Positions 66-63,935 of a stretch of DNA of 64,000 nt are shown here, piece by piece. The stretch comes from Hormiphora californensis. Taxonomy: Eukaryota; Animalia; Ctenophora. The position numbers were made by a program, and so were the translations under genes. The notes below the pieces were generated by a model. The model was given only the letters and a program-made list of their open reading frames with translations. It was not told the DNA's origin and searched no databases. The DNA is taken from assembly GCA_020137815.1 (NCBI GenBank), contig CM035350.1:9734001-9798000 (forward strand), read 5' to 3'. Numbering within the stretch: the first letter of the stretch is position 1; the number at the start of each line of letters is the position of its first letter.

Positions 66-14386
<14,321 letters not shown>

Positions 14387-17194: not shown

Positions 17195-20100
17195 CCACTA
17201 CACGCACCACTCCCACACGGGGCCGTAAGGCCCCGTGCGAGAGCAGGGTTAAATCCCCCGAGCCCGGATCCTGTTGGATCTGAGGGCCCGGAGGGCCTGC
17301 GGAGTAAAGGTAGGTAGAACAATGTACATAAGGGTATGTTGAACAATGTACATATGGGGTAAAGTAAGGATAAAAAATAAACAAGGGGGAATAAAGCTCA
17401 TGGTGACGGAGCACAAGACCTTCTAAACTATCTGGAAAGAGGCCCAACCTTCTGCAACGGAGACTAAGAAGATTCAACCTATCAGGAGCCGAAGAAGCAA
17501 ATTGCTGGAACGGAATCTAAGGCAGCCTAAAAACAAGCAGGAACGGGTGAAAATACAAAAAGGGGGGTATCCGGAGGTTGATTACATGTCGAGAACTTTC
17601 CGGAGCGTGTTCATCGAGTTGAAGAGGACTGATTTTTGGAGCTGTGAGGGGTAGATTTGCCGGGTTATAGCCTGCAAGTACTTCTCCAGTCGGGGGCTAA
17701 CTCCGCCAAGAGCTCCAATCACGATGGGAATGACCGTGGCCTTTTTTGAGCTTCCCAAATTCTCGTGATCTCTCTCCGTAGTTCTTTCGGTACTTCTCGA
17801 TCTTCTCCACCTCCCTGTCTGAGGACTAACCGGTCTTTCGGTACGGCAACATCAATGAGGAGTGCCTCTTTTTTCCGTTTGTCCACAAGAACTAAGTCGG
17901 GCTTGCAGGCCTCAATGGGGTTGTCTGTTTGTATGAGAAAATCCCAGAGTATCTTATAATCATCGTTTTCTAGCACTTTGTCTGCGTAGTGGTTGTACCA
18001 CTTGGACTCAGCAGGGAATCCACGGTCTCTGCACACTCCCCAGTGTAGTGCAGCAGCTACTCGATCGTGACGCAGTTTATAGTCTCCATTGGCAAGCTTT
18101 TGGCACCCGTTTAGGATGTGTTCCACAGACTCATTGTGTTGGTTGCAGATACGGCACTTCTCGGACACTCCTTGTTGTTTTTCTATAGCAGCTTGTATCC
18201 AGTTTGTGCGAATGGCTTGATCTTGGGCGGCAAATACATCGGCTTCGGTGTATCTGCTGAGGCTCTCCTTGTTGAGCCAAGCCCAAGTCGCATCAGGGTC
18301 GCAACCCCCTTCTTCTAGCTGCTTCAGAAATCTTCCATGAAGTGGCTTACCCTTCCAGTTATCTATCAGTTGCCCTTCCAGTCTTTCTTTGAGGGCTTCT
18401 GCATTCTCTGGGGGTTTGTTCAGCATATCCTCTTTCACCATAGCTGTGTGAAGTGCACGTATCTTAGTGTCTGTGGAGTTGCTGAAGATATGATACTAGT
18501 CCTATTTCCTCCTTCACAATGACGTCTTCAATCCGTTGGAGACCTCTTCCTCCCAGCTTCCTGCTTACATACAGTCGATCAATGTCGCTGTTACTCTTGA
18601 GGAAACCTCTTCTCAGGATCTTTCTAGTAATCATGTCTAATCCTTTGGCATCAGTAGTGGTCCAGTCTAGTATCCCAGCGCCGTAGCGGATCACTGGTAT
18701 CGCCCAACGTGTTGATCGCAGTGGCAAGGTTCTTGCCGTGCAGGCTCGAAGATAGCAGTCTTTTGACTCTTCTGACGTATTCGGTTTTAACCTGGTCTTC
18801 ATCTCTTGTGCAGGATAACGTCAACCTCCAGGATGCCGAGGTATTTATAACCACCGTCTTCCACTTCCGGGATTGTGTTCCCACTTGGTAGTTCAATTCC
18901 CTGCATGTGTTGTCTGACCCCCGTCAACGATGTCTAGTGATCCACATTTAGCTATACCAAAAGACATGTTGATGTCGGTGCTGAATTTCTCAGTGATTTC
19001 CAAGAGATGCTGGAGGGTCTCCTCTCGAACTTGCGTACAGTTTCAAGTCGTCCATAGAGCCGATGGTTAATGGTGATATCTTCACCTTCCTCTTGTGCAT
19101 CTGGTTCGGATATGGTGTAGCCTCTCCTTCGGCGGTTAGTAGTAGGGAAAGGGGGATCAGTCCTATAATGAAGTGTATCCGGAGATCAGCGTCTCCTTGG
19201 TAATAGCCTCTCTTATTTGTACTTTCCTACCGATTATCCTACTGTACTATATTAACTACAACATTGTTGACGAGGCCTCAACAGTCTAATTATCTGGGGG
19301 TTTATTCTTTCTTGCACATCTCCATAGATTTCAAGGATCCAGAGTGGGGGTGAGTCTATGCCTTTTGGAGTCGACGAAGGCCATGGTGTAGAGAGGATTT
19401 TGTTGCGTTTGCAATGCGTGGATTAGTTTTTGTCGCTTGCTAGCTGTTCTTTACAATCCGTCTACTCTTCTTGCGCACCCTTCTGCCCTCAGGAAGAGAC
19501 TATTTACAATCCAGGTGTGGTAGATGTTCTCCGATACGATTCCTGTAATACAACAATTTCCGAGTTTTGGAAGACAGGTAATTGGGTCTAAAATTTCCTT
19601 CCCCGGGGTGGACATTCCCTTCTTGGGGCTCTTGATCATGAGTAGGTTCTAACCTTCAGAGTCATCCAATCTTGGATCTGGCTTGTAGTGAGGCTTCCGT
19701 TGAGTAGCTCAGCTATCCTTCCGTGGAGGCAGGTGGTGTGTTTTTTTGATCCAGAAGGCGTGGAGCCCGTCTATTTCCCGGGAGATGACCCAGCTTGGTC
19801 CAGTCCCTTTTCACTCGTGGGATGCAACTCTTTCTACGGGGTGATCATGGAAGTCCTCTTGTTGAGTGATCGTCTCGAAGTTTCCTTGGACGCCATCTAA
19901 CCATTCTGCTTCGGTGTTGTGGCCGGTTTCGGTTTTTCCTCCATATGTTCGTTCCAGAAGTTTATGGTCCTTGTTTCTCTTCCGCTGTGTTTCGAGTGGC
20001 GTGGGGGTGATCCTCTGTCCTCATTTCCTGTAGAAATCACGTTGGTTGTTCTGGAATTAGTTATTGTCCTTTAAAACCTCTGCTGCTTTCTTCTTATATC

Positions 20101-36152: not shown

Positions 36153-36503
36153 CTTGGAGAACCCATCTGTAAAGACGAGGAGATTAAAATATTGAGGAAT
36201 TATATATTTGTTAAATTAAAGGTCCCGGAAATCTTGTAAGACCACGTGACCGTGATCTTTTCGATGAGCGTGAGAGACCTAGTAGAGAGGTCATATTTAT
36301 ACAAGTTTTTGAATTAATAAGGGAGAACACAACAAAAATCTGTATTCCACCCGCTCTTTGTTCTGTGCCCTAATCTTGTTCACCAAACAAAAATATCTGT
36401 GTTTTCCTCGTACCCAATGGGAGGCGACGGTTCGGTTAAGGGTAGCGTAAAGAAAGGTCCTATTGGTCGGAAGACAGGGGACACAAATGGTGACAGAAGT
36501 GGG

Positions 36504-37880
36504 ATGAGTTCTCCACCACTACTGGGATCCAGAGTGAAGCACGAGAATAGGAGGCCAAACATCGCGGCTCTTTCTGCTGGACGTAAGCCAGATGTGTTCA
36601 ACCCAGCTAGTATGGTCTTCAGTCAGTTTTTGGATTCATTTGAGACGTACCGGGACGTTGTTGGACTGGAGGGAAATGATGCCGTCAAACTGTTACTGAC
36701 CTACCTGGACGTGGATACTCAGAACAAGCTGCGGGAAAAGGACCTCCATCATTATCATGACTGGGATGAGTTTCGGAGGGATGCAGTGAGGGTGATGCAG
36801 CAGCACGAACGTCAGAGTGAGATTGAAGCACGGTTCAAACTCAAAAGTGAAATACAGCGTGAGGGAGAATCGGTCATCGACTTCGGAAACCGGATAAAAA
36901 TGCTCTCCAGAACCGCTTTTCCTGGAATTGGCCCTGGCGACACAGCTACCCGGGAAAACATGCTGAAAGATGCTCTTGCTGCGGGTGTGCGGAGACCAGA
37001 GATTGGAGTTCAGCTTATACGGTTACAGAGGGAGATGACGTTTACTGAACTTTTTGGAGAGGCATGCATCCTAGACTCTTCCTACGAGGCTCTGGATAAC
37101 ATCAGGCGAGGCGGACAGATTGTGGTTTCAGCTCTCAGAGCTCAGGTACGTGAACACCAGCCTCAATCGCAGCCCAAAACAGACCATTCTCAGCCCCGTA
37201 ACCAACCGTTATCCGTACCGCCCAATGCTAACCCCGTCCCAGGTCCGTTGCTTTCTAATTCCGCTCCCAGTGCTCAGCATTCTAACACCGTACCTAGTGC
37301 TCAATATTCTAACCACGTTCCCGATGCACAGTATTTTCAGTCTTACCTCGTTCCCGGCTCTCAGTGTTCAAATGTCATGTCTAGTGCACAACAGCCTCTT
37401 AGCGCTATGGGTCCCCGAAATTGGCCAGATGACCAGACTCAGTTCCGTTACAATCAGGCCTATAGCTATGCTCAGCCCCAAAACCAGCCCTTGCATCAGT
37501 TCCGTCATCATATGGGGTCGTCGCAGAATCAGCAGGATCAATCTTCGTGGTCTGGAGGTGGATGGAACCCAAAATCGGTGACATGTTGGTCCTGCAATGG
37601 GCAGGGTCACACTGAGGGTAATTGTTGGAAGCTTCAACGGGATCAGCAGAACGCCGGTGAGAGTCAATGGAATGATGGGAACAGAGACGGAGCTAGGTAC
37701 CAGCGTAATCAGGGTGATTGGTCTGATTTCCAGGAACGAGAGGCTAGAAGAAGGGAACATATGGATACGAACAGAAACCTCGGGTTCCAGAGCCACCAGC
37801 ATCAATGGACACCTCGTGCTGCCGCCCCTGTAAGTACTCAACATCAGTTTGGTTCGTACAGTTCCCTTCCTTTAAACTAG
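36504..37880 (+). CDS. gag: Retrotransposon Gag with CCHC zinc knuckle
   Basis: Intact ORF after the PBS; QREGESVIDF motif; CWSCNGQGHTEGNC; TTTAAAC slippery site just before the stop. Confidence 0.85.
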   Translation: MSSPPLLGSRVKHENRRPNIAALSAGRKPDVFNPASMVFSQFLDSFETYRDVVGLEGNDAVKLLLTYLDVDTQNKLREKDLHHYHDWDEFRRDAVRVMQQHERQSEIEARFKLKSEIQREGESVIDFGNRIKMLSRTAFPGIGPGDTATRENMLKDALAAGVRRPEIGVQLIRLQREMTFTELFGEACILDSSYEALDNIRRGGQIVVSALRAQVREHQPQSQPKTDHSQPRNQPLSVPPNANPVPGPLLSNSAPSAQHSNTVPSAQYSNHVPDAQYFQSYLVPGSQCSNVMSSAQQPLSAMGPRNWPDDQTQFRYNQAYSYAQPQNQPLHQFRHHMGSSQNQQDQSSWSGGGWNPKSVTCWSCNGQGHTEGNCWKLQRDQQNAGESQWNDGNRDGARYQRNQGDWSDFQEREARRREHMDTNRNLGFQSHQHQWTPRAAAPVSTQHQFGSYSSLPLN

Positions 37881-39375
37881 TTTGCCCCTCTCGAGAAGGA
37901 GGGGATGTTGAGGCAGCTCAGTCGCCAACAGTTGATAGATCACGTGCACACTCCAGCTTTTGTTCAGCTTGTATTATTGCCTGGGTAAAACTCGGTCTCA
38001 ACGTTGTATATTTGACCAAGGGTCTGGTGAATGCCGGTGCTTGTGTGAACATCATCAACACTATATTGGCAGGGAAGTTGCAGGTCAGGATTGAGAAAGC
38101 GGATGGATTGCAACTGGTAGTTGTTTCGGCAGTGTTCCAAGCAGTGTTGACTCGTTGGATTCTCGATTTGGCAGATTATGATTTTGTTCTGGAATATCGG
38201 GCAGGAAAATTGATGGAGGTTCCTGACTGTTTCTCTAGACTGCCGAAATCTTCACAGGAGTTGTATGACTGGTAGACCGAGGACCACGGGAAGGATATCG
38301 AGGTAAATAGGGTGTCTGTTGCTGTGTTGACAAACCGGATCCAGGGAAGTTGGGGAGTTTTGAAAAACAGTTTCCTGCTACGTTTAGCTCTCGTATAATT
38401 ATATTGGAAGTTCAGAAAGCGGATATGAGGGTCGACTATTCGTGGATATCGGAGGTGAAGCGAACGGACGTGAGACCTCAGACTGCATCTGACACACTTG
38501 TGAAGATCTGGATGCTCTTCCCTCACATGGCTAGCGGCGCAGAAGGGTCGGTGGGGTACACGTTTTTCCATCACCAGTCTAACTTTGATTGCTGAGTATC
38601 ATGATCCTGATTCAGTTGATCACTTGGGTCTCAACAAGACCACACACCGGCTAGCCCTGGACAATATGCAGAGGGTGATCGTGTCTTAGTCTGGAAACCA
38701 CTGTCATCCACCATCACGGATTACAGAAAGTTCAGAAACCAGTTCACTGGACCCTGGGTCATCAGTAAGGTGCTATCTGACTAAACTTACCTGGTACTCA
38801 ACGAGGAGTTGCTAACTACCAGAGTGGTTCACTTTGACGCTCTCAGGAAGCTACCTCTGAATTTACGTGAGCTGAGAGATAGGGAGGAGCTGGCGGAGTC
38901 TGATGAGGAATCTACGTGTGTAAACTGTACGGGGAGAACTGAAGAGGACGCTGGTTTTGACCTGGGACTACTGTTCGGTGATATCTATCCAATCAATAAC
39001 GGTGAGGTAGACAAACATACAGAGACCAAGACCAGACCAGATGACTGCCATGGAAATTCAGTTCTGACAGACCCTGCAGTTAGTCAACCCATTAACCCTT
39101 GCCCCGCTCTAGAAACTTCTGTTCTGTTGCCTGGATCTAGCAGTGGGGATAACTCAGTAAACAGTGATGAGGGCTTGGAGGTCACGTTGGTAGGAGAGCT
39201 GACTGATAAATCGGGTGATAATGGAGACGAAACGTTCACTATGGTTATTCCTAGCAGTGGTACAACTGATAAGTATGATGATGAGCACCTATCTGATACT
39301 GAGCCTGTGATTGATGCGGAGAACAGCCTCTATTTTCTGAGGAGGAAATACCCGTTCTATACACACTGTAAATGA
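37875..39375 (+). pseudogene. Deleted pol remnants (protease, RNase H end, integrase fragments)
   Basis: LVNAGAC (catalytic D replaced by N), RWILDLADYDFVLEYRAGK..PDCFSR, HLGLNKT, GDRVLV..FTGPW; no RT core. Confidence 0.8.
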
Positions 39376-50329: not shown

Positions 50330-51536
50330 ATGGAGGTGAGTCATGTGTGTGTGATGGAGGTGAGTCATGTGTGTGTGTTTAGAGCTTGCGTCGCTAAGAT
50401 CAAGAAAAATAGAAGGTGCGGACCCTCAAATGATTGAGGCCTCAATCATTTGGAGACTGCTATTCTTCTTTTAAATAGTACATTTCTTATCAGGGTCATG
50501 ATAACGGAGATGCAGGTTTAGAGGCCTTGGAGAGAGTCCAGGCACTGGAGCACAGGGTAGATGAGATTGAGACTGTCCTGGAAGTAAGGGCCAACCCTCA
50601 GGAACGATCCGGTAGACCAAGAAGCGCTGGATACTCCTTCTTCTCATCGGTCAGTGCAGCTATAATACCATCGTTCTGCAGTATACTGCAATTCTTTGTG
50701 TTTTGTTGAATTGTAAATTTCTTCGTCGCGTAGCAGCCTTGTCCAATTCCTCCAATTCATTTCAGTTCCAAACGGGACTCTGCAACGGTTTCACACTGTG
50801 TCCCTGTTTGTCGAGACAGCACGAGCCGGACTCCCCACCACCGCCAACTATTGTAGCTGAACCCCCACGGGAACCAACCCCTGAACCAAGTGAGCCCTAT
50901 CACGAGGAGCCAGAGGAGCCATCCTATCGGACCGAGGACTATCCAGTTGAGAACTCAGAGCCCTTCCACTCAGAGGAACCCGACCAGAGACCCGGCAAAA
51001 AGAAAGGATTCTTTTCGAAGATGGGCGCTAAGGGGAACAGAAGGAAATCAGAAATGAGGGAGCCTGGACCGGTTCAGCCAGCACCTGCACCTGCACAACA
51101 CCACGAACCTGCACCACAGGAGCAGCGAGGGGGCCAGAGTGTCCCCCGAGGACAGCCAGCCCCAGTTAGGGGTGGGGTGGTGCCGGGTCGGGGTGCTGGA
51201 GGGAGGGGTGGAGCAACCCAGCCTAGAGCAGCAGTGCCAGCAGCTCCGGGGGGAGGGAGAGGAGCAGCCCCAGGTAGAGGGGGAGCAGTGGCACCTGGAG
51301 GGACTAGTAGAGGGGGAGCAGTGGCACCTGGAGGGACTAGCAGAGGTGGTCAGACCCAAGGTCGGGGTGGTCAAACCCAAAGTCGGGGTGGCCAGACCCC
51401 AGGTCGGGGTGGCCAGGCCCAAGGTCGGGGTGCCCAGACCCAAGGTCGGGGTGGTCAGGCCCAAAGAGGAGCTGTTCAGGGTGGTCAGGGTGTTCAGGGA
51501 GGAAGAGCTGTAAACAGAACAGTAGCAGACTACTAA
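50330..51536 (+). CDS. Unknown protein: short coiled coil + Pro/Glu region + RGG-rich tail (3 exons)
   Basis: ATG GAG|gtgagt; exon 50494-50649 (LERVQALEHRVDEIE); exon ~50820-51536 with GRGGQTQ repeats. Confidence 0.65.
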
Positions 51537-51674
51537 ACAATTTTAATTACAGTTCACACAAATTTTTGAAAGAAAGTTGAAGAAGTTTTTAAAATTCCCA
51601 ACCATTGCTAAAGTTTAATTTATCTAGACAACAGAATTATATTATATTTCGTTTTAATAGCCCCCTTTTAACAA

Positions 51675-52599
51675 TCAGTAAACATTCACACACATTGAGC
51701 AGGCTCAATTTAGCTAATCACTGGCGGGGTATGGGGCTGAGGCACTGGCAAGATATAGTGGGATCGCTACTTCCCACATCTCATGTGTATCCCGAATTGC
51801 GAATTTAAAAGGGTTGGGTGGTCTCTGGGACCGTCTAGACTTCGCTCCCTGTTAACATGCCAGAAACCAGGGGTCCATCTAGCTCTCATACGCACTCGGC
51901 CATTACTTTCCCAACCAGTAGTACTGGATTTCACATCCTCTTATACTCGCAATTCAGGATAGAAACAATCCTTGTGTTCTAATAGCGATCACCCCGTATA
52001 TCTTGCACTGACCCGTACTACCACACATTTAGTGTGCTTGAAATGGCACTACGGGAATATCTCCACTACACGGCCAGCACTGTGGGTAGACAGCCACCAT
52101 TCAAGTTCCATCACGGTTGCTAACCGGACAATACATTAGTAGAGGGGGTTGGAACACCAGGAGGAAGATCAGTAAACATTCACACACATTGAGCAGGCTC
52201 AATTTAGCTAATCACTGGCGGGGTATGGGTCAGTGCAAGATATACGGGGTGATCGCTATTAGAACACAAGGATTGTTTCTATCCTGAATTGCGAGTATAA
52301 GAGGATGTGAAATCCAGTACTACTGGTTGGGAAAGTAATGGCCGAGTGCGTATGAGAGCTAGATGGACCCCTGGTTTCTGGCATGTTAACAGGGAGCGAA
52401 GTCTAGACGGTCCCAGAGACCACCCAACCCTTTTAAATTCGCAATTCGGGATACACATGAGATGTGGGAAGTAGCGATCCCACTATATCTTGCCAGTGCC
52501 TCAGCCCCATACCCCGCCAGTGATTAGCTAAATTGAGCCTGCTCAATGTGTGTGAATGTTTACTGATCTTCCTCCTGGTGTTCCAACCCCCTCTACTAA
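51675..52599. mobile_element. 925-bp complex insertion (direct + inverted repeats) with a 12-bp TSD
   Basis: TSD cccttttaacaa at 51663-51674 and 52600-52611; 52227-52567 is the reverse complement of 51674-52014; 62-bp direct repeat at 494-bp spacing. Confidence 0.8.
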
Positions 52600-52657
52600 C
52601 CCTTTTAACAACTTATTTTTAATCCCCTCACTCTTTGCATCTAGCTAGCACACAATC

Positions 52658-52959
52658 ATGGGACGACGATGGTTTAGGAGGAAGAAGAGGGGTCCGGGAG
52701 GTCCTGGAGGTCCAGGTGGACACGGTGGACCTGGAGGACCTGGAGGTCCCGGGGGACCATCCCCACACCACGGGGGGCATCATGAGGGAGGGTGCTTTAG
52801 TGGATTCTGGAGACGGGTAACTAATTAGCAAATATACGATTAACAGATAGTAGGGCAAACTTTAATCCCCTCACAAATAAACTGCCGTAATAACAATTAT
52901 TAATTTTAAATCTTGAATTTCAGATCTGTGTATGCTTCTACTGTTGTCATGCGGAGTGA
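52658..52959 (+). CDS. 64-aa Gly/Pro-rich protein with a Cys-rich C-terminus (CYSTM-like), 2 exons
   Basis: MGRRWFRRKKR(GPG)n..GCFSGFWRR|ICVCFYCCHAE*; phase-0 intron 52817-52923. Confidence 0.7.
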
Positions 52960-53151: not shown

Positions 53152-55724
53152 ATGGGAAAAAGTAAAAAGAGGTAGGTAACAAGTAAACTCCTTGGTGACA
53201 TAGACACCTGGCGCGACCCCCGCACCAGGTGTCTATATCTCACCAAGTTAAATCCTTGCTCCTCTAGTTTGTTGATTTGCTTGTAAGAGATGCTCTACAA
53301 GAGTTGACCGGCTGTAACCCCTTTGTTTTCAGTGAAGGTGGTGGATCGGTACCACCCCCTCCCGAAGAGGGGGCTGGAGGGGACCCTGCTGCTGCCCCTC
53401 CTCCTGCTGAAGACCACCAGATCTCAGCGACAGTTGAACACCACGAGGAACACCACCCGGACCACCACCACCACCACCAGCAGCATAGTGAGAAGCCCAA
53501 GAAACAGAGATATGTGCAGCCCCCGGAGCACAATCTAAAGGTAACAAGCAGAGTCACCATGGTAACAAGCAGAGTCACTGCACTCAACTAGGTCTTTCTT
53601 TGAAATATACATGCACTTTATGTATCTTTATCTGTTGGGTAGCATGATTCTTAGTACAACTTCCTCCCTGCAGGCGTCTCTAGTTGGTAAGAAGTTGGGG
53701 ATTCCTATTGTAGACGTACTGAGGAACCACCACGAGAGGATAGCTCTACTAGAGGAGAAAATCGGTGAGACAAGGATGGATTCAATATCTCGAGGATTCC
53801 TTCAGGGAGACGGGGTAAAGAAGAAAAAGAAGAAGAAGAAAAAGAAGAAGAAAAAGGTGAAAATGAGCCATTTTAGTTGTCAATTAAAAAGTCTCTGAGT
53901 TTGATCTCCCTATAACCCCTTTCTTTTCCAGAGTTCATCTTCTTCATCTTCCTCCTCTTCCTCCTCTTCATCGAGTAGTTCCAGTAGTTCCAGCAGTTCT
54001 TCCTCGGATGACGACCTGCCAAGGAGACATCCGGGAACTATACCCATTGATATCATGGCTGCTGGCATCTCCCGTGAAGAGGTTTGTTATGCGGGACGCG
54101 CGAAACACAGTCTAGCTCTCGTGAAGAGGTTTGCTCCAAGTGTCGTTTCAGCTGCCTCTCAGTTAGAATATAGTATGAAATAAACTACTCAATGTTTATA
54201 CCACCATTCTCTATTGTGCTAATGGACCCCTAACCTCATGTTTTCTTTGCTCCTCAACATGATGGATATTTTCTATAGGTAGCGAGGATGTTTGCGGCAC
54301 AGAACGCTGTTTTCAAGGAGTTACTTCGGGAGCAAAGAAAGTGTTATGACGGGGCCCTCAGCGCCGTAATGAATGAGATCCTCATTGCTCTGGGTGAGAG
54401 TGAGGTGGGAGCTGCCGGGGTCAGGCTGGACAGTCTTGAGGAGAGAGTTGAGTCGTTGGAGAAGAAGGCCCTCACTGAGAGTGTTCAAGTTGTCAAAACT
54501 ATCCCAGCTAGTGGTCCGGCCGATACAGCAGATCCAACGAAGAAGCTACCTAAAATGCCATCTTTTGTAAGTATTGTGGTTATCCAGCTGGACCCCGAGC
54601 ACTGTTTGAGTTCCCTTTCTATCACACCGAGAACCACTCATTAAGGTGGTTTGATGGATGGCTTAGTAAATAACTTGCTCTCATCAGGGGAATCCATTCG
54701 GGAAGAAAGAAGAGGTAGAGGAGCCTGAAGAAGAGAAGAAGGGAGGGCTCTTCGGGGGAGGTGGAGGGGGACTCTTTGGGAAGTGAGTATGGAGACTTAA
54801 CCTTGTTTTGATTGAGCGTGAGAGTAATATTGCTTTGTCTCATGATACCGTCCAGAGAGTTTCAAGCAAGGTAATTATAATACAAGAATTTTATCCTCCT
54901 AGAAAGAAGGAAGAGGAGGAAGAGGAAGGAGGAGGTGGTGGGTTCTTCAAAGTACCGAGTGTCCCCAAAATACCTGGCCGCGGCGGGGGAGCCTCACCGG
55001 AACCATCGGTAACAACCAATCAGAGCTCGTTATTTAGGTCACGTGACTGGTTATCAGCCAATCAGGGACCAGCATTTCCTCTGCAGGTAACATTTAGCAA
55101 GTACAAACGGGACAGGGATCGGAGGAAAAAGGAACGGGAAGAACGATATATGGAAGACTATGAATATTACAGAAAGTAAGTAACATATTGAACTATATTG
55201 TTCTATGACTCATATTGATTCGATAGAACAAAGGATCAATCTAGACTTTATTATAAAGGGGCAGAATCCCCCCGCTGAATACGGTAAACACATCCCCTGC
55301 ATGCTACTCATGGTGTTTTTTAGGCAACGCGACACAAGGAGAACGGACAACGGGAGATCAGAGAGAGGTGCAGGGAGACCGGACAGATCCCCAACGAGCA
55401 CCCAACGGAAATCTAAATCAGGATCTCGGAGAAGAAGGATATCAGATAGGGACCGTGAAAAGTAGGTCCGTGTACTCTGTTGTTCTAACCCTCCCTCTAC
55501 ATTTGTAAAGGTGCGGGGCGCCCGAAACACAGTCTAGCCAGGCAACTTCTCTGTTGTTATAACCCTGATCCGGGGGGGGGGGTGAAACAGGGGTGAAACA
55601 GGGGTGAAACAGGGTGAAACAGGGTCCTCCGGGGACATTAGAAATTAATTGTTTTCTTTTATTTAGATCAGGCACTGCAGTTGGTCGGTCGGGGAAGTAC
55701 GAAGTGAGAAACTTGGATGACTGA
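53152..55724 (+). CDS. Unknown low-complexity/coiled-coil protein, ~9-10 exons
   Basis: Chain of GT-AG exons with His, Lys and Ser tracts, RIALLEEKI and LEERVESLEKK; the first junction is uncertain. Confidence 0.6.
53192..53246. mobile_element. 55-bp Mutator-like MITE, same TIR as the element at 34697
   Basis: ttggtgacatagacacctgg..ccaggtgtctatatctcaccaa; near-matching 9-bp TSD gtaaactcc/gttaaatcc. Confidence 0.7.
55009..55086 (+). other. 78-nt candidate intron consisting of a family A MITE core
   Basis: gtaacaacc...ttcctctgcag, with ggtaaca repeated at both junctions. Confidence 0.7.
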
Positions 55725-55962: not shown

Positions 55963-57224
55963 TTAAACCCGTTCCATCTGCTGTCCGGGCTGAAGGCGAG
56001 CCTGGAAAGAAAAGGAAAGGTGTCAGGAAAATAATAGATCGATCTGAGCTGAGTGAGAAATATCATTGGGCCGTCTAGGGCGCCGCCAAACAGACATGAC
56101 AAACAAACAGACATGACAAACAGACAGACATGACAAACAAACAGACATGACAAACAGACAGACATGACAAACAAACAGACATGGCAAACAGACAGAAATG
56201 ACAAACAGACATGACAAACAGACAGACATGACAAACAGACAGACATGACAAACAGACAGACATGACAAACAGACACAACTGACCTGTCTCGCCATCTGGA
56301 TGAGGGAAAGTTGGGGGCAGCAGCATATCATGAGCAAATCATTTATTACACTTCCTTCAATTCCAAACTTCTCTCGGACCTGAATTAGTTGAAAGAATCG
56401 TTATATTTGTCTCCGTAAATTAGTAGGGGTATAATTCCGGATAACCCAGATAGCTCGGATAGTCTGGATAATCGTTTTATTTCTGCCAGGTTAGCCCTAT
56501 AAGGGACCAACCCATGGGGTATCTGAACTTGATCTATGATCCATTCTACTAACCAGGAACCGACCGAAACAAGTAAACAACCAATCAGAACTCGTTATTT
56601 AGGTCACGTGACTGGTTATCAGCCAATCAGGGACCAGTATTTCCTGATTCGGTCGGTTCCATTCTACTAACCCGTCCTCGAACGGTAAGGAAGCAGTAAA
56701 GGTTGAGGAGGGGGACCATGGAAGCGACACCAGCCATCAGACAATCATCTCCCAGCATCTCAGCAGTCTGTCCTGGAGGAACATAGAATTAGCAACATAA
56801 GATGACATGTCTAACATAGAATTAGCAACATAAGATGACATAAAATTAGCAAATTGTAGGACCCTGGACCATGCAGCATGTTTATTGTTTCAGTCTACAA
56901 ATTCTATTGGAACTGAATTGTTCAAAAAGATGCTAATACAATATTGAGTCTGGGTCGTGGTGTTTATACCGAAGGTGAGGCAGGGTACAAAGAGGGTGAT
57001 GCAGCAGAGACCGATATCATCCAGACAACTGCACAGACCAAAGGCCCAGGTGGGTGGGGCACCGTTTCCATGTTGTTGACCGTTAGACTCCCTGCAAGGG
57101 ACACGGTTAGGTTATACTGATCGGTGTGTGCGAGAGCTGAAATGATAAACTGATGGAGAGAATATTCTCTCGAGAATATTCAAATCATAAACTAATAACT
57201 ATGTAGTTCAATTGCCACTTACAT
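55963..57224 (-). CDS. PLAC8/cornifelin-family cysteine-rich protein (~117 aa, 5 exons)
   Basis: WAFGLCSCLDDIGLCCITLFVPCLTFG|QTAEML..RGR|VREKFGIEGSVINDLLMICCCPQLSLIQMARQ|ARLQPGQQMERV*. Confidence 0.88.
56088..56278. repeat. Intronic ~15-bp repeat (acagacatgacaaac)
   Basis: Directly visible in the sequence. Confidence 0.9.
56554..56659 (-). mobile_element. Family A MITE with a longer flanking duplication
   Basis: cattctactaac on both sides; last TIR bases missing. Confidence 0.85.
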
Positions 57225-58443: not shown

Positions 58444-63497
<5,054 letters not shown>

Positions 63498-63826
63498 CAT
63501 TATGATGACAGACAATTTGGGACTTTGTGTAAAATGAAGGTGTGGCGTGATTTTGAATGGATGGTAAATGGTAATACTAATTTGTGATGGAGAAACACTT
63601 GGGTGGGATTTCTGCGGTTTTTTATTTTGATTGATGCATTCGTTTGCATGTGTGATTTATTGAATTGTTCATACTTTGTGCGGGAGCACGAACACAGTGT
63701 CAGGCGACTTAAGTGATTTATTGTTTTCGATATTTTGACTGCAAAGTATAAACCATCATCTACCGAGTCTAAAAACAAATCAGTGTAAACACATCAAATC
63801 ATCATTAAGAATATCTGCCTCCAATC

Positions 63827-63935
63827 CAGGAACCGACCGAATCAGTAAATACTGGTCCCTGATTGGCTGATAACCAGTCACGTGACCTAAATAACGAGTT
63901 CTGATTGGTCGTTCACTTGTTTCGGTCGGTTCCTG
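63827..63935 (+). mobile_element. Family A hAT MITE, intact
   Basis: TIRs present; TSD ctccaatc/ctccgatc. Confidence 0.92.

What the first reader, a model, noticed from the sequence alone, without database searches (positions are those of the whole stretch)
51663..52611. Insertion resembling a copy of a structured 494-nt circular or tandem template with an inverted arm
Seen: between 12-bp TSDs the order is A-B-C-D-A-B'-A'-D'. A (62 bp) recurs after 494 bp. The inverted arm reads B'A'D', so its template had D-A-B contiguous, which implies a circle or multimer. The unit is self-complementary: gcaagatata/tatatcttgc, gatcgcta/tagcgatc, tatcccgaattgcga/tcgcaattcaggata, plus small hairpins. The strand switch occurs where ggtatggg can pair with cccgtact. 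No ORF and no CUGANGA hammerhead core were found on either strand. Known: retrozymes and Penelope-like elements give partial-tandem and inverted copies, and TPRT gives TSDs and inversions. Inference: a possible new retrozyme/viroid-like circular RNA.
Basis: partly seen in the sequence, partly recalled or inferred. Interest (0 to 1): 0.8.

Follow-up and report, generated by a model that had tools for sequence, protein, structure and literature searches.

The report
Ribozyme-less repeat with Penelope footprint
This is one insertion, absent from other copies of the same site, of an abundant 494-base non-coding repeat in a marine animal; its shape matches the footprint of Penelope-type jumping genes, so it was likely pasted in by their enzyme from a folded RNA, but it carries no known self-cutting RNA motif and whether that RNA is a ring is untested.

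Summary
The unit is a high-copy family, and an empty site appears in 3 of 3 DNA runs laid across the locus. Partial tandem, inverted copy, 30-40-nt tail at one end and a TSD are the published signature of endonuclease-containing Penelope-like elements (PLEs). Best reading: a non-autonomous PLE passenger, copied twice from one head-to-tail minus-strand RNA at two starts 32 nt apart. No known ribozyme was found, so it works like a metazoan retrozyme but is not one by definition. Head-to-tail RNA contigs exist, one closing at 494+30 nt, but a DNA run shows the same joint, so circularity is unproven. The autonomous partner was not found. Hammerhead-less non-autonomous PLEs are described in green algae; my searches found none described in an animal. 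The scan noted what look like the same and a sister family earlier on other DNA of this genome (e1-10607138, e1-10648733). New variant of a known kind; interest 0.4.

The parts
51663..51674 (+). Left target-site duplication CCCTTTTAACAA (last A shared with unit position 1)
   Evidence: present once in the aligned part of the X1 empty-site contig
51674..52167 (-). One full 494-nt unit (A-B-C-D on +); inferred RNA is the minus strand
   Evidence: minus strand folds better; X8 RNA contig of 524 nt covers the whole unit
52168..52229 (-). Second copy of A (62 nt): the partial tandem / pseudo-LTR equivalent
   Evidence: D5, 62/62 identical
52223..52229 (.). Head-to-head inversion junction; 3-nt perfect and 6-of-7 microhomology with unit 339-345 (window 52012-52018)
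   Evidence: (I1)
52230..52567 (+). Inverted, 5'-truncated copy B'A' (reverse complement of unit 338 to 1)
   Evidence: 370/370 with the tail
52568..52599 (+). 32-nt tail D' (reverse complement of unit 494-463), at this end only
   Evidence: (I2); compare 31-bp tail in PMC3846280 and 30-40 bp in PMC8557442
52600..52611 (+). Right target-site duplication
52136..52167 (-). Source of the tail inside the unit: the stretch between the two inferred reverse-transcription starts (unit 463 and unit 1)
   Evidence: meaning inferred from PMC11167929
51726..52018 (-). Predicted 290-nt rod (helices of 26 and 24 bp on the minus strand)
   Evidence: z -5.5 against 60 shuffles; variant support mixed
51694..51709 (.). 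6-bp hairpin next to the left end, also recognisable in the sister family
   Evidence: X7 loose end before 51709 (table 7)
52105..52155 (.). 6-bp helix 52105-52110/52150-52155 enclosing the tail end; two double-sided changes in the sister family
   Evidence: permutation P 0.005 among 22 perfect helices of 6 bp or more; low ensemble probability; first spotted by eye

Best explanation
The locus is one copy of a high-copy, non-coding 494-nt repeat that likely moves as a non-autonomous passenger of an endonuclease-containing Penelope-like element. Shown: the architecture, the TSD, the empty sites, the abundance and the head-to-tail form in DNA and RNA contigs. Inferred steps: (1) tandem genomic copies are transcribed into a minus-strand RNA longer than one unit, most simply a linear multimer, possibly a ring. 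(2) A PLE protein made elsewhere nicks both strands of an AT-rich target 12 nt apart. (3) Each 3' end primes cDNA at an internal start with at most 1 nt of homology to the target, one at unit position 1 and one at 463; the 32 nt between them become the tail. (4) The left cDNA runs 556 nt and stops as it re-enters the base of the rod; its end pairs with the complementary strand of that helix, on the second cDNA or on itself, giving the head-to-head join. (5) Repair fills in and leaves the 12-bp TSD. Internal initiation means the RNA needs no ribozyme-cut end.
For: Architecture: direct repeat + inverted truncated copy + 32-nt one-sided tail + 12-bp TSD against Pen2a_Av with two direct pLTRs, one inverted pLTR, a 31-bp tail and a 9-bp TSD (PMC3846280 passages) and fig. 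2 of PMC8557442, where the tail is said not to arise in non-LTR TPRT. In vitro a PLE nicks and extends both strands, prefers AT-rich DNA, starts internally at two sites that bound the tail, and does not need hammerhead cleavage (PMC11167929). The 50 nt on each side of the TSDs are 69% AT against 48% GC in the unit. Family: 1191, 380 and 392 contigs laid from X1, X5 and X13, with summed depth hundreds-fold above the flanks (not a copy number). Empty site in 3 of 3 DNA runs. 10 of 15 listed joints (6 hidden) run from the forward into the inverted arm at other positions, as other copies with the same polarity of inversion would. Head-to-tail form beyond what this locus holds: X7 DNA, and X8, X19 and X9 RNA, 3 of 4 RNA runs laid. 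The architecture predicts a minus-strand RNA, and the minus strand is the better folded one.
Against: No autonomous PLE sharing sequence was found: no genome is held; 100 of 115 selected window frames gave no PLE domain in Pfam; four 10-nt motifs gave one apparently unrelated hit in the Naiad/Chlamys supplement. Recurrent ends at unit 1 and 463 were not counted across copies; only two X13 loose-end rows near unit 1 were visible. The inversion joints of other copies have sides of only 22-31 letters at 85% likeness and some may be mis-laid. The in vitro PLE starts in an AC-rich stem-loop, whereas the inferred RNA here is GU-rich at that end. The junction partner is not the best duplex available (-6.9 against -7.3 kcal/mol at unit 304-323). 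Structure support from variants is mixed: on the minus-strand fold 2 double-sided, 1 one-sided and 4 breaking changes for the sister family. RNA contigs do not prove transcription, strand or level.
Confidence: 0.78

Rival explanations
1. Same PLE-driven insertion, but the template is a true 494-nt circular RNA made by an unknown ribozyme or host enzyme and copied by rolling-circle reverse transcription (a hammerhead-less retrozyme). This is a version of step 1, not an alternative to PLE mobilisation.
For: Both arms cross the D|A joint. X8 RNA contig is 524 nt = 494+30, as a closed cycle would be. Fixed unit length and a strong rod. Metazoan retrozymes make circles (PMC7229834 section 13).
Against: The DNA run X7 shows the same joint and a 519-nt sister-family contig, so tandem DNA explains closed contigs. 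No Rfam ribozyme at E up to 10; no hammerhead or HDV-like descriptor hit (no positive control available); no AG|GT back-splice site on either strand. PLE protein uses unprocessed RNA in vitro.
Confidence: 0.3
2. LINE-type twin priming retroposed a host circular RNA or a SINE.
For: Head-to-head inversion with microhomology and a 12-bp TSD resemble L1 twin priming (recalled); a non-LTR remnant lies at 17719-18495.
Against: No poly(A) or simple-repeat tail; no Pol III box motifs, tRNA, ORF or back-splice signature; the one-sided 32-nt tail is described as not seen in non-LTR TPRT.
Confidence: 0.06
3. An endogenised copy of an infectious viroid-like RNA that replicates RNA to RNA.
For: Held by RNA runs of marine metatranscriptomes from several studies; rod-like part; no ORF.
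Against: Very abundant in DNA of organisms A and B and present in seawater DNA; no ribozyme in either polarity; only about 60-66% paired as a circle; 0 hits in viral contigs.
Confidence: 0.04
4. A DNA foldback element, MITE, or TRIM/LTR-type element.
For: 345-nt perfect inverted arms and a TSD; a purine run precedes A.
Against: Ends are asymmetric (tail on one side only); inversion points appear to vary among copies; ends are not TG..CA and the TSD is 12 bp, against 4 bp in LTR retrozymes.
Confidence: 0.04
5. The inversion is an assembly or foldback-read artefact.
For: Arms are identical; no displayed contig bridges this junction; such structures are noted to trouble assemblies.
Against: A perfect 12-bp duplication of a motif that is single in the empty allele, and a PLE-sized tail, are not products of read foldback.
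Confidence: 0.04

Closest known systems
Endonuclease-containing PLE insertions, e.g. Pen2a_Av of Adineta vaga (PMC3846280, passages) and Naiad/Chlamys (PMC8557442, sections 6, 10, 15)
   Same: Partial tandem, adjacent inverted 5'-truncated copy, 30-40-nt tail at one end, TSD of about 10 bp, AT-rich target.
   Different: No ORF; whole unit 494 nt; no sequence link to a catalogued PLE found.
Non-autonomous Chlamys PLEs such as MRC1 of Chlamydomonas (PMC8557442 section 10)
   Same: Non-coding, pLTR-forming, often head-to-tail, polymorphic insertions; the clade mostly lacks hammerheads.
   Different: Here in an animal; 3' similarity to an autonomous family not shown; carries a long predicted RNA rod.
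Metazoan non-LTR retrozymes (PMC7229834 section 13 and passages; bioRxiv 10.64898/2026.07.22.740005 parts 1 and 3 of 5)
   Same: Small non-coding head-to-tail units, GC under 50%, TSD longer than 4 bp, self-paired RNA, proposed PLE dependence.
   Different: No type I hammerhead, which defines them; 494 nt is above the 150-450 bp quoted; circular RNA not shown.
PAc (Poseidon) in vitro mechanism (PMC11167929, parts 1-2 of 4)
   Same: Two starts bounding the tail, no homology to the cut DNA, both strands extended.
   Different: PAc has an ORF and a hammerhead, and starts in an AC-rich stem-loop; the inferred RNA here is GU-rich there.

Membership tests
PLE-mobilised (non-autonomous) element | Partial tandem / pseudo-LTR | tested here: met
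   62-nt direct repeat at 494 spacing; head-to-tail joint in other copies
PLE-mobilised (non-autonomous) element | Adjacent inverted 5'-truncated copy, head-to-head | tested here: met
PLE-mobilised (non-autonomous) element | 30-40-nt tail at one end, equal to the sequence following the repeat | tested here: met
   32 nt, 52568-52599
PLE-mobilised (non-autonomous) element | TSD with an empty allele | tested here: met
   12 bp; empty site in X1, X5, X13
PLE-mobilised (non-autonomous) element | Ends of other copies recur at the same two starts | tested here: inconclusive
   two X13 loose-end rows near unit 1; 213 rows hidden
PLE-mobilised (non-autonomous) element | Sequence shared with the pLTR of an autonomous RT/GIY-YIG element | tested here: inconclusive
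   no genome; nothing in the window or by short motifs in one supplement
Metazoan non-LTR retrozyme | Type I hammerhead in each unit | tested here: not met
   Rfam; no CUGANGA, one 1-mismatch core on +, 0 descriptor hits
Metazoan non-LTR retrozyme | Head-to-tail non-coding unit of a few hundred bp | tested here: met
Metazoan non-LTR retrozyme | Circular RNA in vivo | tested here: inconclusive
   closed 524-nt RNA contig, but the same joint in DNA; only contigs were available
Metazoan non-LTR retrozyme | Self-cleavage in vitro | not testable with these tools
   needs transcription of a dimer
Viroid-like replicon | No DNA counterpart; RNA-to-RNA replication | tested here: not met
   abundant in DNA; replication itself untested
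LTR retrozyme / TRIM | LTR ends, 4-bp TSD, type III hammerhead | tested here: not met
   definition
Back-spliced circRNA pseudogene | Exon-derived unit with an AG|GT junction | tested here: not met
   no AGGT on either strand; no ORF

The most novel reading that the evidence does not exclude
The 494-nt unit is a circular RNA of an animal, cut and closed by a self-cleaving motif of an undescribed class (candidates: the rod apex 51827-51890 or the tail stem 52105-52155), and is copied by rolling-circle reverse transcription by a Penelope protein: a retrozyme family without a hammerhead.
Probability: 0.12. Interest if true: 0.8.

Novelty: new variant of a known kind. Interest (0 to 1): 0.4.

Why it matters
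The copy is short and its repeats are identical, so the inferred steps of a PLE insertion can be read from under 1 kb: two starts 32 nt apart, a 12-nt stagger and a join at an RNA helix. It is a ready substrate for the in vitro PLE assay and bears on how inverted PLE structures form (two primed cDNAs annealing, or self-priming). It also suggests that retrozyme-like passengers need no hammerhead, which would mean that hammerhead-based screens miss them. If the RNA proves circular, an unknown cutting and closing route is at work.

Tried and rejected
Whole genome: none held. Rfam at E up to 10 over 51500-52800: 7 weak matches, none a ribozyme, all far below gathering; whole window at gathering: 0. 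Motif and descriptor scans for hammerhead, HDV-like, hairpin, twister, pistol, group I S, Pol III boxes (motifs recalled): no complete set; single fragments only (hairpin loop-B 5' strand and a twister-like GRAGRG on +); no positive control, since the window has no hammerhead pattern. By-eye twister and HDV parses of the rod apex failed. ARAGORN: 0. Metagenome scan with a 19-nt motif: 3 loci, all matches of only 19-20 nt in unrelated DNA, rejected as chance. Viral and prokaryote scans with a 21-nt motif: 0 and 0. ESM Atlas on an EGF-gene frame gave no host phylum; the comb-jelly host label comes only from earlier AI notes and is untested here. Pfam on 100 of 115 selected frames: EGF domains, one weak zf-RVT, one weak zf-U1, no PLE domain. 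Covariation over all perfect helices was marginal (P 0.009, 0.054, 0.078 for minimum length 4, 5, 6) and used 38 differences; 11 rows table 3 were hidden and 51791-51857 was unaligned. Of 24 runs listed, 8 were laid; the rest are no evidence. X18 did not show the head-to-tail joint. Earlier-findings search by sequence: nothing. Literature searches listed no description of this family or of a hammerhead-less non-autonomous PLE in an animal; repeat databases and subscription papers were not searchable, and bioRxiv supplements were not seen.

Full report
Observation. CCCTTTTAACAA flanks the insert at 51663-51674 and 52600-52611. Call the 494-nt unit U = 51674-52167. The forward arm follows U head-to-tail for 556 nt, to 52229, and the inverted arm 52227-52599 is the exact reverse complement of doubled-unit positions 463-835. 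All internal copies are identical (62/62; 370/370). There is no ORF of note (59 aa from Met at most) and no CUGANGA. The fold is real but partial: the rod 51726-52018 has z -5.5 on the minus strand and -2.95 on the plus strand, the remaining 150 nt are unremarkable, and the whole unit scores -2.64 and -1.70.

It is a family, and this copy is polymorphic. No genome is held, so I used public runs. 20 of 24 listed runs, from 11 studies, hold part of the unit. Across the locus X1, X5 and X13 gave 1191, 380 and 392 contigs; summed depth over the element is about 1,800-5,600 against about 7 in the unique flanks in X1, and similarly raised in X5 and X13. The tool warns that this is no copy number, but it marks a high-copy repeat. 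All three DNA runs hold contigs that join the left flank to the right flank without the element; in X1 the aligned part includes the TSD once. Ten of the 15 listed joints (6 hidden; 8 in X5, 2 in X1, two probably one junction read both ways) run from the forward into the inverted arm at positions other than this locus's own. Each is weak (22-31 letters on the short side), but together they suggest that head-to-head inversion is common in the family. The locus's own junctions were not among the rows shown.

Head-to-tail form. The joint 52167 to 51674 is spanned, with more sequence on both sides than this locus holds in one piece, by X9 (260+205 nt), X8, X19 and X7. X18 does not show it. The X8 RNA contig is 524 nt, the unit plus 30, as a closed cycle in a contig graph would be. 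But X7 is on record as probable DNA and shows the same joint, and also a 519-nt contig of a sister family about 85% alike. Tandem DNA copies therefore explain closed contigs, and contigs cannot show strand, ends or level. Circularity is not shown.

What the architecture is. PMC8557442 (section 6) describes PLE copies as partial tandems with an adjacent inverted 5'-truncated copy and a 30-40-bp tail often at one end only. PMC3846280 (passages) describes Pen2a_Av with two direct pLTRs, an inverted pLTR, a 31-bp tail continuing the sequence behind the pLTR, and a 9-bp TSD, and shows pLTRs mobilising unrelated DNA in trans. PMC11167929 (parts 1-2 of 4) gives the biochemistry: both strands nicked and extended, AT-rich targets, two internal starts without homology to the target that bound the tail, and hammerhead cleavage dispensable. 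Here the target surroundings are 69% AT and neither arm end has more than 1 nt of homology to the target. The geometry puts the RNA on the minus strand, which is the better folded one; the two family variants in the central helix keep pairing on that strand through G-U pairs.

Mechanism. Shown: architecture, TSD, empty sites, abundance, head-to-tail form. Inferred: a longer-than-unit minus-strand RNA; a PLE protein in trans; nicks 12 nt apart; cDNA 1 from unit 1 running 556 nt; cDNA 2 from unit 463; a join where cDNA 1 re-enters the base of the rod. Its last 7 nt have a complement with at most one mismatch at only two places in the unit, and the join uses one of them (unit 345), although a slightly stronger 5-bp duplex exists elsewhere. 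Annealing of two long cDNAs and self-priming of cDNA 1 (proposed in PMC3846280) both fit; simple foldback alone cannot supply the tail, so a second start is needed either way.

Ribozyme and circle routes. Rfam gave 7 weak unrelated matches at E up to 10. Descriptor scans for hammerhead and HDV-like folds gave 0 on either strand, without a positive control. No AG|GT site exists for back-splicing. Variants give mixed support for structure: for the sister family the minus-strand fold has 2 double-sided, 1 one-sided and 4 breaking changes, the plus-strand fold 1, 4 and 4. One 6-bp helix around the tail end carries two double-sided changes (P 0.005 among 22 helices), but I first saw it by eye and the ensemble gives it 0.01-0.28.

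Comparison. It works like a metazoan non-LTR retrozyme (PMC7229834 section 13; bioRxiv 10.64898/2026.07.22.740005 parts 1 and 3, which argues that these are PLE derivatives) but fails the hammerhead test. It is closest in definition to non-autonomous Chlamys elements such as MRC1; Naiads and most Chlamys lack canonical hammerheads. The partner is unidentified. Earlier AI notes place this genome in a comb jelly and report hammerhead-bearing Penelope palindromes in it; I tested neither. The supplement lists two ctenophore Naiads, one commented HHR_core.

Verdict. A real, probably recent insertion with an ordinary PLE footprint, of a repeat family I could not find described. The PLE reading was reached, before the earlier notes were seen; those notes agree but are not independent evidence. 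New variant of a known kind, interest 0.4; a new ribozyme-made circle has about a 12% chance.

Noticed in passing
window 51709-52163 (X7 record 6, X8 record 9, X9 record 27; matching loose ends in X1 and X5): A sister family about 85% alike, with a 519-nt contig in X7; it keeps the left hairpin and the tail stem. It may be the 485-nt unit of e1-10648733 (not tested).
   Followed up: partly
window 51827-51838 and 51871-51882: A 12-nt internal direct repeat with 2 mismatches, 44 nt apart, at the rod apex; no sister-family difference is listed for 51858-51890 (some rows hidden). Candidate protein-binding or catalytic core.
   Followed up: partly
window 52018 / 52090 (X18 record 2): One 151-nt RNA contig (depth 2.4) changes strand at the base of the rod with the opposite polarity to the genomic join; another copy or a library foldback.
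   Followed up: no
window 51536-52658: The insertion sits about 125 nt after the stop of a Gly/Arg-rich frame and 46 nt before the ATG of a small Gly-rich gene with a Cys-rich last exon (CYSTM-like by recalled motif) that has RNA cover in X9; the spacer varies among empty alleles.
   Followed up: no
window 53191-53247: A near-perfect 19-bp inverted repeat with a 5-nt loop (I12).
   Followed up: no
window 59975-61325; 56557-56660; 63820-63935: A foldback element with GGTTC-repeat arms and several copies of a roughly 100-nt palindromic MITE-like repeat, read by eye.
   Followed up: no
window 17719-18495 (-); 36321-39375 (+): A non-LTR retrotransposon remnant (weak zf-RVT) and gag/pol-like remnants judged by eye, without a Pfam hit.
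   Followed up: no
window 69-4637 (-): Exons of an EGF-repeat protein with a Thr/Glu-rich stalk.
   Followed up: partly
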